Assembly (NCBI GenBank): GCA_021161995.1
Contig: JAGGZO010000073.1
Location: 1 to 24,000, forward strand
Origin: Candidatus Aenigmatarchaeota archaeon
Lineage (GTDB): Archaea; Aenigmatarchaeota; Aenigmatarchaeia; CG10238-14; SpSt-28
Reading direction: 5' to 3'
DNA length: 24,000 bases
Below the pieces are notes generated by a model. That model saw only the letters and a list, made by a program, of their open reading frames with translations, was not told where the DNA came from and searched no databases. How positions within the stretch are numbered: the first letter of the stretch is position 1; each line of letters begins with the position of its first letter. Below, in pieces: positions 2,848 to 15,540 of this stretch. A program made the position numbers and the translations under genes.

Positions 2848-3699
2848 GTGAGACTGAAAGATTTGCTCAAGGATAAAATTCCAGACAAACTTTTGAGTAA
2901 AGTACCCGGTAGTTTTGAGATTGTTGGTAGTAGGGAAAAAGCTGTAGCAATTGTTGAAATAGGCGATGAATTAGATATTTACAAACATGAAATAGGAAAG
3001 GCTATAGCTCAGATAAACAAAAATGTCAAAATTGTCTTAAGAAAAACCAGCGAGAGAATAGGTGAATTTAGGATAAGAAAATACGAAAGAATATATGGAG
3101 AAGGTGATACTGAGGTTATCCATAAAGAGTATGGATATTTGATAAAAGTAGATCCCACTAAAGCGTATTTTTCTTCGAGAGAGTCTGCAGAAAGACAGCG
3201 AATAGCTTCAATGGTTAAACCGGGTGAAAGAATACTTGTGATGTTTTCTGGTGTTGCACCTTTTGCAATAGCAATAGCAAAAAAGCAGCCATTTGTTAGA
3301 GAAATTGTTTGTGTTGAGAAAAATCCTGATGCGCACAGATATGCAATAGAGAATGTTAGGCTAAACAAGCTTGAAGATAAAGTAAAATGCATCAATGGAG
3401 ATGTCAATGAGATATGTCCTAAATTTGGAGAGAAATACTTTGATCGAATCTTAATGCCTTTGCCTAAAGGTGCGTATGAATTTTTAGATATAGCAATTCC
3501 ATCGATCAAAAAGCATGGTATATTACATTTCTATTATTGGGGTGAAGAGCCAATAGAAAAAACCATAGAAAGAGGCTTTGAACTAATAAAAAATGCAGCA
3601 AACAAAATTTCTAGGAAGGCTAATTTAATTTCGGGTAAAAAAGTATTGCCTTATGCTCCTAGAGTTTGGAAAGTTGTAATAGATGCAGAAATCGTTTAA
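2848..3699 (+). CDS. trm5: tRNA (guanine37-N1)-methyltransferase Trm5 / Met-10+ family class I SAM methyltransferase
   Basis: 283 aa with a GTG start. It contains YFSSRESAERQRI, the SAM-binding loop ILVMFSGVAPFAI and DRILMPLP, which are characteristic of archaeal Trm5/Taw22. Confidence 0.75.
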   Translation: MRLKDLLKDKIPDKLLSKVPGSFEIVGSREKAVAIVEIGDELDIYKHEIGKAIAQINKNVKIVLRKTSERIGEFRIRKYERIYGEGDTEVIHKEYGYLIKVDPTKAYFSSRESAERQRIASMVKPGERILVMFSGVAPFAIAIAKKQPFVREIVCVEKNPDAHRYAIENVRLNKLEDKVKCINGDVNEICPKFGEKYFDRILMPLPKGAYEFLDIAIPSIKKHGILHFYYWGEEPIEKTIERGFELIKNAANKISRKANLISGKKVLPYAPRVWKVVIDAEIV

Positions 3700-6319: not shown

Positions 6320-7153
6320 TCATTCTCTGTAATACAAAAACAGTTTAACATCTCTTATGTCATAAAATGCTTCTCCATTAACGTAAAACTCTATAGTATT
6401 GTCACCAGCTTTTATTACAGATTTATCTATTTCTATTTCATTTGTTCTACTGAATGGTCTCTTATTGTAAATAATTTTATCGTTTATTTCAATTACCAGA
6501 TTGGATGTTTCCAAAGAAGGAAATTTCTTGAACGATAATTCTGCTAGTTCAGACTTTTCTAGAATGTTTTTATCTACATAGAACGAAAATTCCTCCTCTT
6601 CAGTTTCTGTTGTAGTTGTTATTGTTTTTGCATAGTCTAGCAGGTAAACAGCTCTCATCCAGAACTTCCATCCAGGATTTGTTGCTTTTATCTTCACATA
6701 GTTGCTTTCTTGTTTTAAGTAACTAAGAGGTATTTTTATGGTGTATATACCTGGTTCTGCTCTTTTTGACCAAAGTTTTACATCATTCACGTATATCTCC
6801 AAATTGCCTGCGTTGTTAGTATCTCTAACTAAAAATTCTAACATTACTTCTTTGGTTTGATTTGTTTTATCTGGTAGAATTAAACTTATGCTTTTCTCTG
6901 AAAAATAACCTTTCTCTACACTAACAGAGTTCACCTCATCAATTGTCTTAGTTTCGTTTGATAAAGATATGTTTACCTGAGCTGCTATGAAAACAGAAAA
7001 TTTGGATAATTTTTCAGAAATATCAGTTTTGTTAGTAATCTTTTCTGGAGTTGTGACTTCTTGTTGGGTAAAGTAAATGGCTAAAACCATTATGAATATC
7101 ACAGATCCTAATAGTATGAATGCAAATTCATCCAGTGTTTTTTGACCTTTCAT
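6320..7153 (-). CDS. Hypothetical secreted or membrane-anchored protein with an internally duplicated beta-rich domain
   Basis: 277 aa. It has an N-terminal signal-anchor FAFILLGSVIFIMVLAIYF. Two related segments are present: NLEIYVNDVKLWSKR...YVKIKA and NLVIEINDKIIYNKR...NTIEFYV. Several N-x-S/T sequons occur. I recognise no family. Confidence 0.6.
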   Translation of the reverse strand: MKGQKTLDEFAFILLGSVIFIMVLAIYFTQQEVTTPEKITNKTDISEKLSKFSVFIAAQVNISLSNETKTIDEVNSVSVEKGYFSEKSISLILPDKTNQTKEVMLEFLVRDTNNAGNLEIYVNDVKLWSKRAEPGIYTIKIPLSYLKQESNYVKIKATNPGWKFWMRAVYLLDYAKTITTTTETEEEEFSFYVDKNILEKSELAELSFKKFPSLETSNLVIEINDKIIYNKRPFSRTNEIEIDKSVIKAGDNTIEFYVNGEAFYDIRDVKLFLYYRE

Positions 7154-9350: not shown

Positions 9351-10062
9351 TGGGGCGGGTGGGATTTGAACCCACGACCTACCGGTCTTCAGCTTCGGCT
9401 GGGAAGAGACCTAATATACTCTTTGCTATTTTATATTTATAACTATTTGAAAATCCTATAGTATTCATCCATTTCTTGAGATTTTCTCTTCCATATAAAG
9501 CCAGTTTAAAACTGGCTGTATTAGATTTTTTACTAAAGCTTTTCCTTACTTTACCAGTTCTAAATCCTAGTTTTATTAAAATGTCTCTTATTTGATCGAG
9601 AAGCTTTCTACTAGAACTTGTAAATTCTAGTGTTGGATAATTTTTTACTCCTTTTTTGTCTGAAGTGAATATAGATCCATCTGTATCCATTATGCCTCTT
9701 ATTACTTGTTTAGCTATCTCAATATCCTCGAGTGCAACCTTTGGTAATGCGACTTTCAAATGTTTGCCAAAACCTATTGGTATTCCAGTCGATGAAATCA
9801 TTTGAAAGAAATGTTTTGATGTTATTCTTAATCTTATTGCATTTTCCCTCTTTCTAACTTTGACAAATACACCAAACTGTTTTTCTATGTTTTCCTTTAG
9901 ATATTTAAAATATTCTTCATCTTTTTCTTGGTGACCTGTTAGTTCCACTCTATAATGAGAATTTTTCGAGTATAGATTACCGTCTCCTATTATAGCCCCA
10001 ACAAGTTCCCAGAAGAATGGTCTCTTCCCATCGGCCGCTCTCCCGGACTGAGCCACCGCCCC
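9351..10062 (-). tRNA. tRNA-Phe(GAA) gene with a 638-nt intron between positions 30 and 31
   Basis: The 5' exon is 10062..10032: GGGGCGG TG GCTC AGTCCGGGA GAGC G GCCG. The 3' exon is 9393..9351: G CTGAAGA CCGGT AGGTC GTGGG TTCAAAT CCCAC CCGCCCC A. Joined, they give a perfect 74-nt cloverleaf with a 7-bp acceptor stem, all stems paired and anticodon loop CUGAAGA. Confidence 0.85.
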
Positions 10063-10083
10063 ACTAATTGTTATTTTTAGCAT
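9379..10083 (-). CDS. Double-motif LAGLIDADG homing endonuclease, intron-encoded; the true start codon is unresolved
   Basis: The ORF is 234 aa. Motif 1 is WELVGAIIGDGNL and motif 2, about 100 aa later, is IRGIMDTDGSIF, the spacing of monomeric I-DmoI-like enzymes. The ORF as drawn starts 21 nt upstream of the tRNA, reads through the 5' exon, and ends at a TAG inside the 3' exon. The biologically used start is unclear. Confidence 0.75.
   Translation of the reverse strand: MLKITISGAVAQSGRAADGKRPFFWELVGAIIGDGNLYSKNSHYRVELTGHQEKDEEYFKYLKENIEKQFGVFVKVRKRENAIRLRITSKHFFQMISSTGIPIGFGKHLKVALPKVALEDIEIAKQVIRGIMDTDGSIFTSDKKGVKNYPTLEFTSSSRKLLDQIRDILIKLGFRTGKVRKSFSKKSNTASFKLALYGRENLKKWMNTIGFSNSYKYKIAKSILGLFPAEAEDR
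9394..10031 (-). mobile_element. Archaeal bulge-helix-bulge (BHB) intron carrying a LAGLIDADG homing endonuclease gene
   Basis: Hand-folded BHB. A 4-bp helix pairs CGGC (10037..10034) with GCCG (9399..9396). It is flanked by 3-nt bulges CG|A (10033..10031) and AA|G (9395..9393). It is closed by a perfect 12-bp helix, TGGGAAGAGACC (10030..10019) with GGTCTCTTCCCA (9411..9400). Cleavage after the second bulge nucleotide gives exactly the exon ends needed for the tRNA-Phe cloverleaf. Confidence 0.8.
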
Positions 10084-10102
10084 TTAATCATTTATAAAGT
10101 TT

Positions 10103-15277: not shown

Positions 15278-15391
15278 GCCCCGGTAGCTCAATGGAAGAG
15301 CGCCCGGCTTGTATGCCGCCTCCTGGTATATTGATACTAAGATGAGAGCAAGGATACCGGGAGGTTGTGGGTTCAACTCCCACCCGGGGCT
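15278..15391 (+). tRNA. tRNA-Thr(UGU) with an intron of about 42 nt at the canonical 37/38 site (about 15314..15355)
   Basis: Acceptor GCCCCGG/CCGGGGC. D-arm GCTC/GAGC. Anticodon stem CCCGG/CCGGG with 5' loop CTTGTA. T-arm GTGGG-TTCAACT-CCCAC. Exon CTTG pairs with intron CAAG to form the central BHB helix. The exact 3' junction is uncertain by 1 nt. Confidence 0.85.
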
Positions 15392-15426: not shown

Positions 15427-15540
15427 GGGGCCGTAATCTAGCCAGGCAGGATGGCGGGCTCCAGAAACGGGTTTTTGGAGCGTGGATAAAAGATGACAGG
15501 GAGAAACCCGTTAACCGGGGTTCAAATCCCCGCGGCCCCA
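15427..15540 (+). tRNA. tRNA-Trp(CCA) with a 41-nt intron at 37/38 (15465..15505)
   Basis: Acceptor GGGGCCG/CGGCCCC. Anticodon stem GCGGG/CCCGT with loop CTCCAG|...|A. T-arm CGGGG-TTCAAAT-CCCCG. In the BHB, CTCC pairs with GGAG, flanked by bulges AG|A and AA|A. Confidence 0.85.

What the first reader, a model, noticed from the sequence alone, without database searches (positions are those of the whole stretch)
9351..10062. tRNA-Phe(GAA) split at non-canonical position 30/31 by a 638-nt BHB intron that encodes a LAGLIDADG homing endonuclease
Two GC-rich segments 638 nt apart join into a flawless 74-nt tRNA-Phe cloverleaf. The junctions sit in a textbook bulge-helix-bulge motif: a 4-bp helix CGGC/GCCG, 3-nt bulges CG|A and AA|G, and a perfect 12-bp closing helix. 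The cleavage register is the same one that produces the canonical 37/38 junction in the tRNA-Trp of this window. The intervening sequence encodes an apparently intact two-motif LAGLIDADG enzyme. To my knowledge, archaeal LAGLIDADG-bearing BHB introns are described mainly in rRNA genes, while archaeal tRNA introns are normally tens of nt long and ORF-less. If confirmed, an endonuclease-carrying tRNA intron at a non-canonical site would be a direct candidate for an actively mobile tRNA intron. It would also offer a mechanistic explanation for how tRNA introns spread to non-canonical positions.
Basis: partly seen in the sequence, partly recalled or inferred. Interest (0 to 1): 0.9.

Follow-up and report, generated by a model that had tools for sequence, protein, structure and literature searches.

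The report
Endonuclease-carrying intron inside archaeal tRNA-Phe
The only phenylalanine tRNA gene in this stretch of a tiny (DPANN) archaeon's chromosome is interrupted, at an unusual spot, by a protein-spliced intron that carries a gene for a DNA-cutting "homing" enzyme. Related genomes suggest that this enzyme family repeatedly colonises tRNA-Phe genes, which may explain how such odd tRNA introns spread.

Summary
On the minus strand, 10062-10032 (31 nt) and 9393-9351 (43 nt) join into a 74-nt tRNA-Phe(GAA). The 638-nt AT-rich insert (10031-9394) lies between tRNA positions 30 and 31. It sits in a bulge-helix-bulge motif: CGGC/GCCG, bulges CG|A and AA|G, and a 12-bp closing helix. The insert encodes a two-motif LAGLIDADG enzyme with a confident I-DmoI/I-Tsp061I-like fold.

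Three species-representative genomes (Nanoarchaeota, Undinarchaeota, Desulfurococcales) carry the same arrangement at the same site. A sister strain (flanks 89-93% identical) has identical exon sequence on both sides of position 30/31 and no intron there, so a natural empty site exists.

About 60 of 81 homologous endonuclease genes are free-standing and lie next to a tRNA-Phe gene. That gene usually has a 15-47-nt ORF-less intron at the same 30/31 site. The motif helices covary strongly.

One caveat: in this window the ORF has no start codon inside the intron. The intron's 5'-terminal AUG is out of frame by one nucleotide, so present-day endonuclease expression is uncertain.

I found no paper describing an endonuclease gene inside an archaeal tRNA intron. 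Verdict: real, and a new variant of a known kind (known until now from archaeal rRNA introns).

The parts
10091..10098 (-). TATA-like box TTTATAAA, 36-29 nt upstream of the mature tRNA 5' end; the presumed promoter of the tRNA-Phe gene
   Evidence: all six RNA genes of the window (tRNA-Leu, SRP RNA, tRNA-Val, tRNA-Thr, tRNA-Trp, tRNA-Phe) have an A/T box at about -36..-28. The same box is conserved in sister strain L088. Promoter function is inferred, not shown.
10032..10062 (-). tRNA-Phe exon 1 (31 nt; Sprinzl positions 1-30 with 17a): acceptor 5' strand, D arm, and positions 26-30 of the anticodon stem
9394..10031 (-). 638-nt bulge-helix-bulge intron between tRNA positions 30 and 31, almost entirely filled by the endonuclease ORF
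   Evidence: best solution: intron after position 30, central 4 bp, inner 12 bp, outer 2 bp. No group I or II intron signal.
9351..9393 (-). tRNA-Phe exon 2 (43 nt; positions 31-73): G31, anticodon loop CUGAAGA, 3' anticodon stem, variable loop, T arm, acceptor 3' strand, discriminator A73. No CCA is encoded.
10034..10037 (-). Central 4-bp helix of the motif, 5' strand CGGC (tRNA positions 25-28)
   Evidence: It covaries with the intron's 3'-terminal tetramer across 26 genes.
10031..10033 (-). 5' three-nucleotide bulge CG|A; predicted cleavage after G30
10019..10030 (-). Closing helix, 5' strand TGGGAAGAGACC (also codes for residues GKRP of the ORF)
9400..9411 (-). Closing helix, 3' strand GGTCTCTTCCCA (also codes for residues GLFP at the ORF's C-terminal extension)
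9396..9399 (-). Central 4-bp helix, 3' strand GCCG (intron nt 633-636)
9393..9395 (-). 3' three-nucleotide bulge AA|G; predicted cleavage before G31
9379..10083 (-). Open frame of 234 codons encoding a LAGLIDADG_3 endonuclease. The part homologous to the family runs from about 10032 to about 9415. The frame is open through exon 1, and the TAG stop (9381-9379) lies in exon 2 (tRNA positions 43-45).
9979..10005 (-). LAGLIDADG motif 1 (LVGAIIGDG, residues 27-35; acidic D34)
   Evidence: G29, G33 and G35 are invariant in the family, and A30, I32 and D34 are at least 90% conserved
9676..9705 (-). LAGLIDADG motif 2 (VIRGIMDTDG, residues 127-136; acidic D135)
   Evidence: R129, G130, D133, D135 and G136 are invariant
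10054..10056 (-). GTG at tRNA nucleotides 7-9: the only in-frame start codon expected to lie within the tRNA transcript
   Evidence: The ATG at 10083-10081 lies at -21, between the TATA box and the expected transcription start.

Best explanation
This is a working tRNA-Phe(GAA) gene of a Candidatus Aenigmarchaeota (DPANN) archaeon. It is interrupted between positions 30 and 31 by a protein-spliced (bulge-helix-bulge) intron that carries a LAGLIDADG homing-endonuclease gene.

Proposed mechanism:
1. The gene is transcribed from its own TATA box.
2. In the precursor, tRNA positions 25-28 pair with the last tetramer of the intron, and a 12-bp helix closes the intron. This presents two 3-nt bulges separated by 4 bp.
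3. The archaeal splicing endonuclease cuts in both bulges and RtcB-type ligase joins the exons into a 74-nt tRNA. CCA is added afterwards.
4. At the DNA level the intron belongs to a homing element. The endonuclease is expected to cut uninterrupted tRNA-Phe genes around GAGCGGCCG^GCUGAAGACC, and repair then copies the intron in.

This copy is the rare 'fused' state of a family in which the endonuclease gene normally sits just outside a tRNA-Phe gene that carries a small ORF-less intron at the same site.

Shown here: sequence, structure, covariation, fold, site conservation and an empty-site allele. Inferred: splicing, cleavage specificity and homing. Whether this particular copy still makes its enzyme is open, because it has lost an in-intron start codon.
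For: The tRNA:
- ARAGORN cloverleaf.
- 51-bit tRNA-Phe-specific HMM score.
- G20, the GAA anticodon and A73 are present, read directly from the sequence. I know these as tRNA-Phe identity elements from my own knowledge.
- The TATA box has the same geometry as the other RNA genes of the window.
- The surrounding genes are housekeeping genes.

The motif:
- Exact 3-4-3 geometry with a 12-bp helix.
- Across 26 tRNA-Phe genes with a 30/31 intron, 98.3% of cells pair, against 69.6% in shuffles and 29-38% with slid partners. Eight of 11 pairs show double-sided changes; for example the central helix reads CGGC/GCCG, CGCA/TGCG, CACC/GGTG, CAAT/GTTG.

The endonuclease:
- Pfam LAGLIDADG_3 at 1.5e-13.
- All family-invariant residues are kept.
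- The structure model has pLDDT 90.6, and its best PDB matches are PI-PfuI, I-Tsp061I and I-DmoI.

Same arrangement elsewhere:
- L008 (Nanoarchaeota), L037 (Undinarchaeota) and L074 (Desulfurococcales) all have a 630-662-nt intron after position 30 of tRNA-Phe.

Empty site:
- L088, with flanks 93% and 89% identical, has tRNA positions 10-73 (including both sides of the 30/31 junction) identical to the window and contiguous at 30/31. Position 9 differs (A versus G).

Family link to tRNA-Phe:
- 59 of 81 non-redundant homolog loci have a tRNA-Phe within 200 nt, and a few more are found by other methods.

Not an artefact:
- A second assembly agrees without indels.
Against: - The ORF has no ATG, GTG or TTG in frame inside the intron ahead of motif 1. 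The intron begins AUG, but one nucleotide out of frame, giving a 13-codon peptide. In the closest relative, L008, the same AUG is in frame.
- The only usable starts are a GUG inside tRNA exon 1, or an ATG that probably lies upstream of the transcription start. The enzyme may therefore no longer be made.
- There are no expression data. No splicing endonuclease gene lies in the window.
- The rest of the genome could not be searched for a second tRNA-Phe gene.
- The fourth central base pair (C25-G) competes with the D stem in the minimum-energy fold.
- In my covariation set, the 5' junction was picked among nine offsets by best pairing, which biases the paired fraction upward.
Confidence: 0.85

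Rival explanations
1. The intron is spliced normally, but it is a stranded relic. The endonuclease gene has just lost its start (a one-nucleotide frame slip relative to the intron-terminal AUG), so this copy can no longer home and is at the 'decay' stage of the homing cycle.
For: - The window is the only one of the four intron-borne copies without an in-intron start. L008 has ATG at intron nt 1, L037 has GTG at nt 6, and L074 has ATG at nt 56.
- The two strands of the 12-bp helix and an independent assembly agree on the sequence, so the frame offset is real.
- Decayed copies with internal stops exist in the family: L035, L038 and a split copy in L077.
- The exon-encoded residues 1-20 are disordered in the model.
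Against: - The 217 downstream codons are fully open in 31.5%-GC DNA, and every invariant residue is retained.
- In L008 and L074 the stop codon lies in exon 2. The family may therefore be translated from the unspliced precursor anyway, which would make a GUG start in exon 1 usable.
Confidence: 0.35
2. The tRNA gene is dead. An endonuclease gene was inserted into it, and a second uninterrupted tRNA-Phe elsewhere does the work.
For: - Standard tRNA finders do not call the gene.
- The rest of the genome was not available.
Against: - Both exons are flawless and a promoter-like box is retained.
- The insertion is flanked by an exact splicing motif whose helices covary across 26 genes.
- The same arrangement is kept in four lineages from different phyla.
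- Archaeal genomes generally carry one gene per tRNA species (PMC4307357 abstract).
Confidence: 0.05
3. The insert is a self-splicing group I (or group II) intron carrying a LAGLIDADG gene, as in bacterial tRNA genes and some archaeal rRNA genes.
For: - Group I introns carrying LAGLIDADG genes do exist in archaeal rRNA genes (PMC6125680).
Against: - No Rfam intron family matches, even at E up to 10.
- About 610 of the 638 nt are coding, which leaves no room for a ribozyme core.
- The junctions fit the protein-spliced motif exactly.
Confidence: 0.01
4. The arrangement is an assembly chimera or a chance juxtaposition of GC-rich segments.
For: - The sequence comes from a metagenome-assembled genome.
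Against: - An independent assembly (L001) shows the same sequence with 15 SNPs elsewhere and no gaps.
- Four further genomes show the same architecture.
- The split-tRNA search gives no false hits in the window.
Confidence: 0.01

Closest known systems
Archaeal rRNA bulge-helix-bulge introns encoding LAGLIDADG homing endonucleases (I-DmoI in Desulfurococcus mobilis 23S, I-Tsp061I, I-ApeI, I-PorI)
   Same: - Same splicing motif and same enzyme superfamily.
- Single-chain two-motif architecture of about 200 aa.
- I-Tsp061I and I-DmoI are among the best structural matches.
- The presumed life style is the same: homing into a conserved RNA gene.
   Different: - The host gene is a 74-nt tRNA, not rRNA.
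- The ORF fills the whole intron, so its ends double as the closing helix and its stop codon lies in the exon.
- This copy has no start codon of its own.
- Sequence identity to the solved enzymes is only 17-24%.
ORF-less archaeal tRNA introns at non-canonical positions (Thermoproteales, DPANN, Asgard; Sugahara 2008, Fujishima 2010, Kaneta 2018 PMC5829648)
   Same: - Same motif, and placement outside the 37/38 site.
- 30/31 mini-introns of 15-47 nt occur in many tRNA-Phe genes of the loci surveyed here.
   Different: - Those introns are tens of nucleotides long and encode nothing.
- Their proposed spread ('intron transposition') has no known enzyme.
- Here the intron is 638 nt and carries a DNA endonuclease gene.
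Bacterial group I introns in tRNA genes that carry a homing endonuclease (for example I-Ssp6803I in cyanobacterial tRNA-fMet; from my own knowledge, not checked here)
   Same: A tRNA gene interrupted in the anticodon arm by an intron that encodes its own homing enzyme.
   Different: - Those introns are self-splicing ribozymes, and their enzyme is of the PD-(D/E)xK type.
- Here splicing is by host proteins and the enzyme is LAGLIDADG.
'Collaborative homing' and endonuclease-gene invasion in phages (F-CphI beside the psbA intron; mobE with the defunct I-TevIII; PMC3984707, PMC2790892, PMC6083498)
   Same: - A free-standing endonuclease gene lies next to a gene that carries an ORF-less intron.
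- Separate and fused states of the same pair coexist, which is what the survey shows for tRNA-Phe 30/31.
   Different: - The phage cases involve group I introns in protein genes, and cleavage at the intron insertion site has been demonstrated.
- Here the introns are protein-spliced tRNA introns, and no cleavage site has been measured.

Membership tests
tRNA-Phe | Cloverleaf with a 7-bp acceptor stem, D arm, 5-bp anticodon stem, 7-nt loop with U33 and purine 37, T arm, and anticodon GAA | tested here: met
   ARAGORN on the joined exons; my own cloverleaf check
tRNA-Phe | Isotype-specific sequence similarity to uninterrupted tRNA-Phe genes | tested here: met
   HMM of nine intron-less archaeal tRNA-Phe genes: 51 bits, E 1.4e-15. 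tRNA-Trp scores 11.8 bits, tRNA-Val 1.0 bits, and shuffles at most 2.2 bits. A covariance-model score on the spliced sequence could not be obtained with the tools.
tRNA-Phe | Identity elements G20, G34-A35-A36 and A73 (from my own knowledge of Phe identity sets) | tested here: met
   Read directly from the sequence
tRNA-Phe | The mature spliced tRNA exists and is aminoacylated | not testable with these tools
   Needs RNA-seq or northern blots
Archaeal bulge-helix-bulge intron | Two 3-nt bulges on opposite strands separated by a 4-bp helix (definition as in PMC5829648) | tested here: met
   CGGC/GCCG with bulges CG|A and AA|G
Archaeal bulge-helix-bulge intron | Flanking helices on both sides (h and h') | tested here: met
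   h' is 12 bp and perfect. h is only 2 bp (G24-C32, A23-U33).
Archaeal bulge-helix-bulge intron | The structure is maintained by compensatory change in relatives | tested here: met
   98.3% of cells paired; 8 of 11 pairs show double-sided changes; slid controls give 29-38%. Caveat: junction choice favoured pairing.
Archaeal bulge-helix-bulge intron | Cleavage by the splicing endonuclease, ligation, and a circular intron | not testable with these tools
   No expression data; no EndA gene in the window
LAGLIDADG homing endonuclease | Significant match to LAGLIDADG profiles | tested here: met
   LAGLIDADG_3 at 1.5e-13 and 51.3 bits, against a cut-off of 22.5
LAGLIDADG homing endonuclease | Two LAGLIDADG helices, each ending in an acidic catalytic residue | tested here: met
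   LVGAIIGDG (D34) and VIRGIMDTDG (D135); D135 invariant and D34 at least 90% conserved in the 33-sequence alignment
LAGLIDADG homing endonuclease | Pseudo-dimeric alpha-beta-beta-alpha-beta-beta-alpha fold | tested here: met
   Model pLDDT 90.6, pTM 0.87. Foldseek matches PI-PfuI, I-Tsp061I and I-DmoI at E 1e-8 to 1e-10.
LAGLIDADG homing endonuclease | A complete, independently translatable gene | tested here: inconclusive
   No in-frame start inside the intron ahead of motif 1. The candidates are the GTG in exon 1, or the ATG at -21.
LAGLIDADG homing endonuclease | Site-specific double-strand cleavage of the intron-less allele | not testable with these tools
   Needs an enzyme assay on the L088-type target
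Mobile (homing) intron | Presence/absence polymorphism at one site between close relatives | tested here: met
   L088 has identical exon sequence on both sides of the site and no 30/31 intron; its flanks are 89-93% identical to the window
Mobile (homing) intron | The same insertion site in distantly related hosts | tested here: met
   The window plus L008, L037 and L074, from four phylum-level groups
Group I intron | Match to group I covariance models, and room for a ribozyme core | tested here: not met
   No hit at E up to 10; the ORF occupies about 96% of the intron

The most novel reading that the evidence does not exclude
Non-canonical tRNA introns in archaea may be products of an arms race with LAGLIDADG homing endonucleases.

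The proposed route:
1. A free-standing endonuclease gene parks beside a tRNA gene and cuts uninterrupted alleles at a family-specific position.
2. A small protein-spliced intron at exactly that position protects the resident gene and is dragged along during repair. This would be 'collaborative homing' in archaea.
3. Occasionally the endonuclease gene drops into the intron loop, giving a self-contained mobile tRNA intron such as the one in this window.

Support so far:
- About 60 of 81 homologs sit next to tRNA-Phe, and most of those genes have a 30/31 mini-intron.
- One subclade goes with 27/28 introns, and another sits beside tRNA-Thr.
- An unrelated LAGLIDADG family is found twice overlapping the 5' end of a tRNA-Phe gene that has a 9/10 mini-intron.
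Probability: 0.35. Interest if true: 0.9.

Novelty: new variant of a known kind. Interest (0 to 1): 0.78.

Why it matters
Endonuclease-bearing protein-spliced introns are textbook for archaeal rRNA genes. Archaeal tRNA introns, by contrast, are treated as short and ORF-less. A comprehensive 2014 review of tRNA introns never mentions homing or ORFs, and six full-text searches found no report.

How tRNA introns reach non-canonical positions is an open question; 'intron transposition' has no known enzyme. This locus and its relatives provide three things:
- a candidate enzyme;
- a defined target, GAGCGGCCG^GCUGAAGACC;
- natural filled, empty and 'separate' alleles.

Together these make the question testable at the bench.

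There is also a practical point. Such genes escape ARAGORN and Rfam. This may be one reason tRNA sets look incomplete in DPANN genomes (PMC5829648), and it can distort completeness estimates for such genomes.

Tried and rejected
1. Brute-force removal of candidate introns followed by ARAGORN gave many ambiguous calls. A first strict version timed out. I replaced it with motif-scored intron candidates plus an explicit cloverleaf check. Three-intron solutions from that pipeline are unreliable: L002, L007 and L039 were mis-typed and then corrected by eye or by the GAA-loop test.
2. Rfam covariance models cannot be run on a spliced sequence with these tools. Running them on L088 returned only a tmRNA clan artefact over the tRNA. 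I used a profile HMM instead.
3. A group I/II intron was tested and rejected.
4. Assembly error as the cause of the ORF frame offset was rejected. Both helix strands agree on 3 G / 3 C, and an independent assembly has no indel.
5. I considered a -1 frameshift from the intron-terminal AUG. There is no canonical slippery heptamer in AUGGGAAGAG, so I did not pursue it.
6. The minimum-energy fold of the L037 precursor does not reproduce its motif. I rely on geometry and covariation there.
7. I asked whether the intron-less tRNA-Phe genes next to free-standing endonuclease genes carry 'resistant' target sequences. Their anticodon stems vary, but nothing can be concluded without a known recognition site.
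8. The genome collection kept only 80 of 169 relatives, so the counts are a sample.
9. The NJ tree is unbootstrapped and serves only as a rough guide.
Full report
**1. What is in the sequence**

The feature lies on the minus strand.
- Reading 5'->3', GGGGCGGTGGCTCAGTCCGGGAGAGCGGCCG (10062-10032) is followed by 638 nt of 31.5%-GC sequence (10031-9394).
- Then comes GCTGAAGACCGGTAGGTCGTGGGTTCAAATCCCACCCGCCCCA (9393-9351).
- The two GC-rich pieces are 81% and 63% GC, in a window that averages 34% GC.

Joined, they are a 74-nt tRNA-Phe(GAA).
- ARAGORN draws a complete cloverleaf.
- The sequence has G20, U33, G37 and A73, and no encoded CCA.
- A profile HMM built from nine uninterrupted archaeal tRNA-Phe genes scores the joined sequence 51 bits (E 1.4e-15).
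- The same HMM gives the window's spliced tRNA-Trp 11.8 bits, tRNA-Val 1.0 bits, and 200 shuffles at most 2.2 bits.

On the unspliced DNA, neither ARAGORN nor the Rfam tRNA model sees the gene. A simple search of my own pairs a T arm plus acceptor 3' strand with a complementary acceptor 5' strand plus D arm up to 3 kb upstream. It returns exactly five hits on both strands of the window: the four conventional tRNAs and this one. Chance is not a reasonable explanation.

**2. The splice junctions**

- tRNA positions 25-28 (CGGC, 10037-10034) pair with the last tetramer before the intron's final two nucleotides (GCCG, 9399-9396).
- The 5' bulge is C29-G30|A and the 3' bulge is A-A|G31.
- Intron nt 2-13 (TGGGAAGAGACC) pair perfectly with nt 621-632 (GGTCTCTTCCCA).
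- On the exon side, two more pairs are possible (G24-C32, A23-U33).

This is the 3-4-3 geometry that defines the archaeal splicing motif (definition in PMC5829648). The cut comes after the second bulge nucleotide on each strand. That is the same register that gives the canonical 37/38 junction of the window's tRNA-Trp(CCA) at 15427-15540.

The unconstrained minimum-energy fold of the whole 712-nt precursor recovers the following:
- the acceptor stem, D arm and T arm;
- the 12-bp helix and the 5' bulge;
- three of the four central pairs; the fourth competes with the D stem.

Rfam finds no group I or II intron, even at E up to 10. The ORF leaves no room for a ribozyme.

**3. The ORF**

The 234-codon open frame 10083-9379 matches Pfam LAGLIDADG_3 at 1.5e-13.
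- It has two motifs, LVGAIIGDG and VIRGIMDTDG.
- It keeps every invariant residue of a 33-member alignment of its relatives.
- An AlphaFold model built on that alignment has mean pLDDT 90.6.
- Only residues 1-20 (the exon-encoded part and the junction) and residues 231-234 are disordered.
- The best PDB matches are the endonuclease domain of PI-PfuI, the archaeal rRNA-intron enzyme I-Tsp061I, and I-DmoI.

The protein is therefore a bona fide single-chain LAGLIDADG enzyme.

The unexpected point is its start.
- Relatives begin about eight residues before the conserved ELVG. In the window that position is the codon G30|AU, which spans the splice site.
- There is no ATG, GTG or TTG in frame inside the intron ahead of motif 1.
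- The intron does begin AUG, but one nucleotide out of frame, so it encodes 13 residues.
- In the nearest relative (L008, 52% identity) the same intron-terminal AUG is in frame.
- L037 has GTG at intron nt 6, and L074 has ATG at nt 56.

The frame offset is real. Both strands of the closing helix agree, and an independent JGI assembly (L001: 99.74% identical, 15 SNPs, no gaps, none in this gene) has the same sequence.

The remaining in-frame starts are two.
- GUG at tRNA nt 7-9.
- ATG at -21. All six RNA genes of the window have an A/T box at about -36..-28, so this ATG probably lies between the TATA box and the transcription start. This is an inference from standard archaeal promoter geometry.

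The stop codon (TAG) is in exon 2. In L008 and L074 the stop is the UGA formed by U33-G34-A35 of the anticodon loop. This hints that the family is translated from unspliced precursor.

I therefore leave open whether this copy is expressed from the exon-1 GUG or has just been disabled.

**4. Source and setting**

The identical protein is annotated in a Candidatus Aenigmarchaeota MAG, and the contig recurs in JGI metagenome 3300016457.

The neighbours are housekeeping genes:
- topoisomerase VI A and B;
- archaeal SAM synthetase;
- a pelota-like protein and a Trm5/Taw2-like methyltransferase;
- triose-phosphate isomerase and ADP-dependent kinase;
- RIO kinase and NMD3.

An SRP RNA and four other tRNAs are also present. 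This is chromosome, not a virus or plasmid.

**5. Relatives: the same intron elsewhere**

A scan of one genome per species returned 80 loci that encode relatives of the enzyme. My split-tRNA search found three in which the endonuclease gene lies inside a tRNA:
- L008 1024-1749 (Nanoarchaeota B33_G15);
- L037 2501-3204 (Undinarchaeota);
- L074 2388-3123 (Desulfurococcales).

In all three the tRNA is tRNA-Phe(GAA). The intron (652, 630 and 662 nt) follows position 30, and the 3-4-3 motif is present.

The central helix differs in each locus, and both strands change together:
- CGGC/GCCG in the window;
- CGCA/TGCG in L008;
- CACC/GGTG in L037;
- CGCC/GGCG in L074.

**6. Relatives: mostly outside the tRNA, and next to tRNA-Phe**

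The other homologs are free-standing, but they are not randomly placed.
- By motif-guided splicing, by Rfam and by an HMM recount, 59 of 81 non-redundant loci have a tRNA-Phe with a GAA loop within 200 nt of the endonuclease gene.
- L039 and L066 are added by the motif method, and L042 has one at 219 nt.
- In most cases the tRNA lies 30-75 nt downstream on the same strand. Some are tail-to-tail or head-to-head.
- Eight loci of a distinct clade sit beside tRNA-Thr instead.

Roughly 35 of these neighbouring tRNA-Phe genes carry a 15-47-nt ORF-less intron at the same 30/31 site. Each is essentially the motif plus a hairpin. One subclade goes with 27/28 introns, and about nine loci have no intron.

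I aligned the junction regions of 26 tRNA-Phe genes with a 30/31 intron:
- 98.3% of cells pair, against 69.6% in shuffles and 29-38% when partners are slid by 1-3 columns;
- 8 of 11 pairs show changes on both sides.

One caveat applies. My script chose each 5' junction among nine offsets by best pairing, which inflates the paired fraction somewhat. The double-sided changes in the central helix do not depend on that choice, because the spliced products must also form a tRNA.

A rough NJ tree puts the four intron-borne enzymes in at least three places, with the window and L008 as sisters. The gene has therefore moved into or out of the intron more than once.

**7. A natural empty site**

An exact-match scan of metagenome contigs with 35 nt of exon 2 found one contig, L088.
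- Its flanks are 93% (topoisomerase VI A) and 89% (towards SAM synthetase) identical to the window, so it is a sister population.
- Its tRNA-Phe is identical to the window's from position 10 to position 73; position 9 differs (A versus G).
- Positions 30 and 31 are contiguous...GAGCGGCCGGCTGAAGACC....

This is the intron-less allele that a homing model requires.

L088 is not simply 'empty', however.
- A different LAGLIDADG_3 gene (225 aa, about 22% identical) starts 23 nt after the same TATA box.
- That ORF runs into the tRNA and ends at a TAA inside a 17-nt motif-bounded mini-intron at position 9/10.
- Its only detectable relative (37% identical, L089) shows the same layout: the ORF stop spans T8-A9-intron nt 1, and there is a 20-nt 9/10 mini-intron in tRNA-Phe.

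The tRNA-Phe locus is thus a hot spot that different endonuclease lineages occupy, each paired with an intron at its own position.

**8. Most likely mechanism**

- Shown: a structurally perfect tRNA-Phe; an exact and covarying splicing motif; an intact-looking LAGLIDADG fold; the same site occupied in four phylum-level groups; and filled and empty alleles in sister strains.
- Inferred from established knowledge of archaeal splicing (EndA cleavage at 3-4-3 motifs, RtcB ligation) and of LAGLIDADG homing (I-DmoI and related rRNA introns): the precursor is cut at the two bulges and ligated to give tRNA-Phe. The element spreads by cleavage of uninterrupted tRNA-Phe genes near 30/31, followed by repair-mediated copying.

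The family-wide pattern parallels two phage scenarios reviewed in PMC3984707 (see also PMC2790892 and PMC6083498). These are 'collaborative homing' and 'endonuclease-gene invasion', in which a free-standing endonuclease and an ORF-less intron converge on one site and sometimes fuse. On that reading the window shows the fused state. I give this extended reading about 0.35. The alternative is that endonuclease and intron are linked only through shared descent of host genomes, and no cleavage site is known.

**9. Comparison with what is known**

- Archaeal rRNA introns with LAGLIDADG genes are classical.
- Archaeal tRNA introns at non-canonical sites are well documented, but as short ORF-less elements.
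- Bacterial tRNA genes can carry group I introns with endonuclease genes (from my own knowledge).

I found no report of an endonuclease gene in an archaeal tRNA intron.
- Six full-text searches found nothing.
- The 2014 review of tRNA introns contains neither 'homing' nor 'ORF'.
- The library lacks many subscription papers, so absence of a report is not proof.

Kaneta et al. note that incomplete tRNA sets in DPANN and Asgard genomes imply undiscovered disrupted tRNA genes. Genes like this one are an obvious candidate.

**10. Verdict**

The finding is real and correctly interpreted in its essentials. It is a new variant of a known kind: a homing-endonuclease-bearing protein-spliced intron, but in a tRNA and at position 30/31. 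It is not unique to this genome. It comes with an informative natural series of alleles. The main uncertainty for this copy is whether the endonuclease is still translated.

Noticed in passing
L088 493-1246 (also L092 2229-2982) and L089 1501-2367: A second, unrelated LAGLIDADG_3 family (225-260 aa; 37% identical between the two loci; about 22% to the window's enzyme). It is free-standing immediately upstream of tRNA-Phe. Its ORF overlaps tRNA nt 1-9 and ends at a TAA that spans the 5' splice site of a 17-20-nt bulge-helix-bulge mini-intron at position 9/10. In L088 the ATG lies 23 nt after the TATA box shared with the window, so the mRNA may be leaderless with the tRNA in its 3' part.
   Followed up: partly
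L002 2075-3826 (same in L003-L005, L009); also L027, L059: A tandem array: LAGLIDADG gene, then tRNA-Lys(CUU) with 30/31 and 37/38 introns, then a second LAGLIDADG gene, then tRNA-Phe with 30/31 and 37/38 introns. The pairing of endonuclease and intron-bearing tRNA is therefore not limited to Phe and Thr.
   Followed up: partly
L008 and L074, first nucleotides of exon 2; L037, last nucleotides of the intron: In L008 and L074 the endonuclease ORF ends at the UGA formed by U33-G34-A35 of the tRNA-Phe anticodon loop. In L037 it ends at the TGA inside the central-helix strand GGTGAA. A stop codon in the exon implies translation of unspliced precursor, or a non-stop or extended product from the excised intron.
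   Followed up: partly
window 15278-15391 and 15427-15540 (+): Two adjacent intron-bearing tRNAs, found by Rfam but missed by ARAGORN. The second is tRNA-Trp(CCA) with a 41-nt intron at 37/38. The first reads by eye as tRNA-Thr(UGU) with a 43-nt intron at 37/38 and discriminator U. My strict motif pipeline failed on the first, so its motif is probably relaxed.
   Followed up: partly
window: 60 nt upstream of 3730, 4070, 6249, 15278, 15427 (+) and of 10062 (-): All RNA genes of the window have an A/T-rich TATA-like box at about -36 to -28 from the mature 5' end, which implies very short leaders.
   Followed up: partly
L035, L038, L077: Endonuclease homologs with internal stop codons or split reading frames sit next to tRNA-Phe genes that have 27/28 introns. 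They look like decaying copies.
   Followed up: no
L016, L036, L064: These contigs are labelled Saccharibacteria, Dojkabacteria and Acidoferrum (bacteria). They carry the archaeal endonuclease family next to tRNA-Phe genes, two of which have archaeal-type spliced introns. They are probably mis-binned archaeal contigs.
   Followed up: no
L001 5822-6205 versus window 6494-6877: The end of the JGI contig repeats a nearby segment in inverted orientation (100% identity), which looks like an assembly fold-back artefact at a contig end.
   Followed up: no
window 2848-3699 (+): A Trm5/TYW2-family methyltransferase gene (an enzyme class acting on G37, including wyosine synthesis in tRNA-Phe) lies 6 kb from the tRNA-Phe gene. 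This is probably coincidental.
   Followed up: no
L012 4191-5576 (-): One free-standing homolog lies about 1.1 kb from a 23S rRNA gene rather than beside a detected tRNA. I did not examine whether it is related to an rRNA intron.
   Followed up: no
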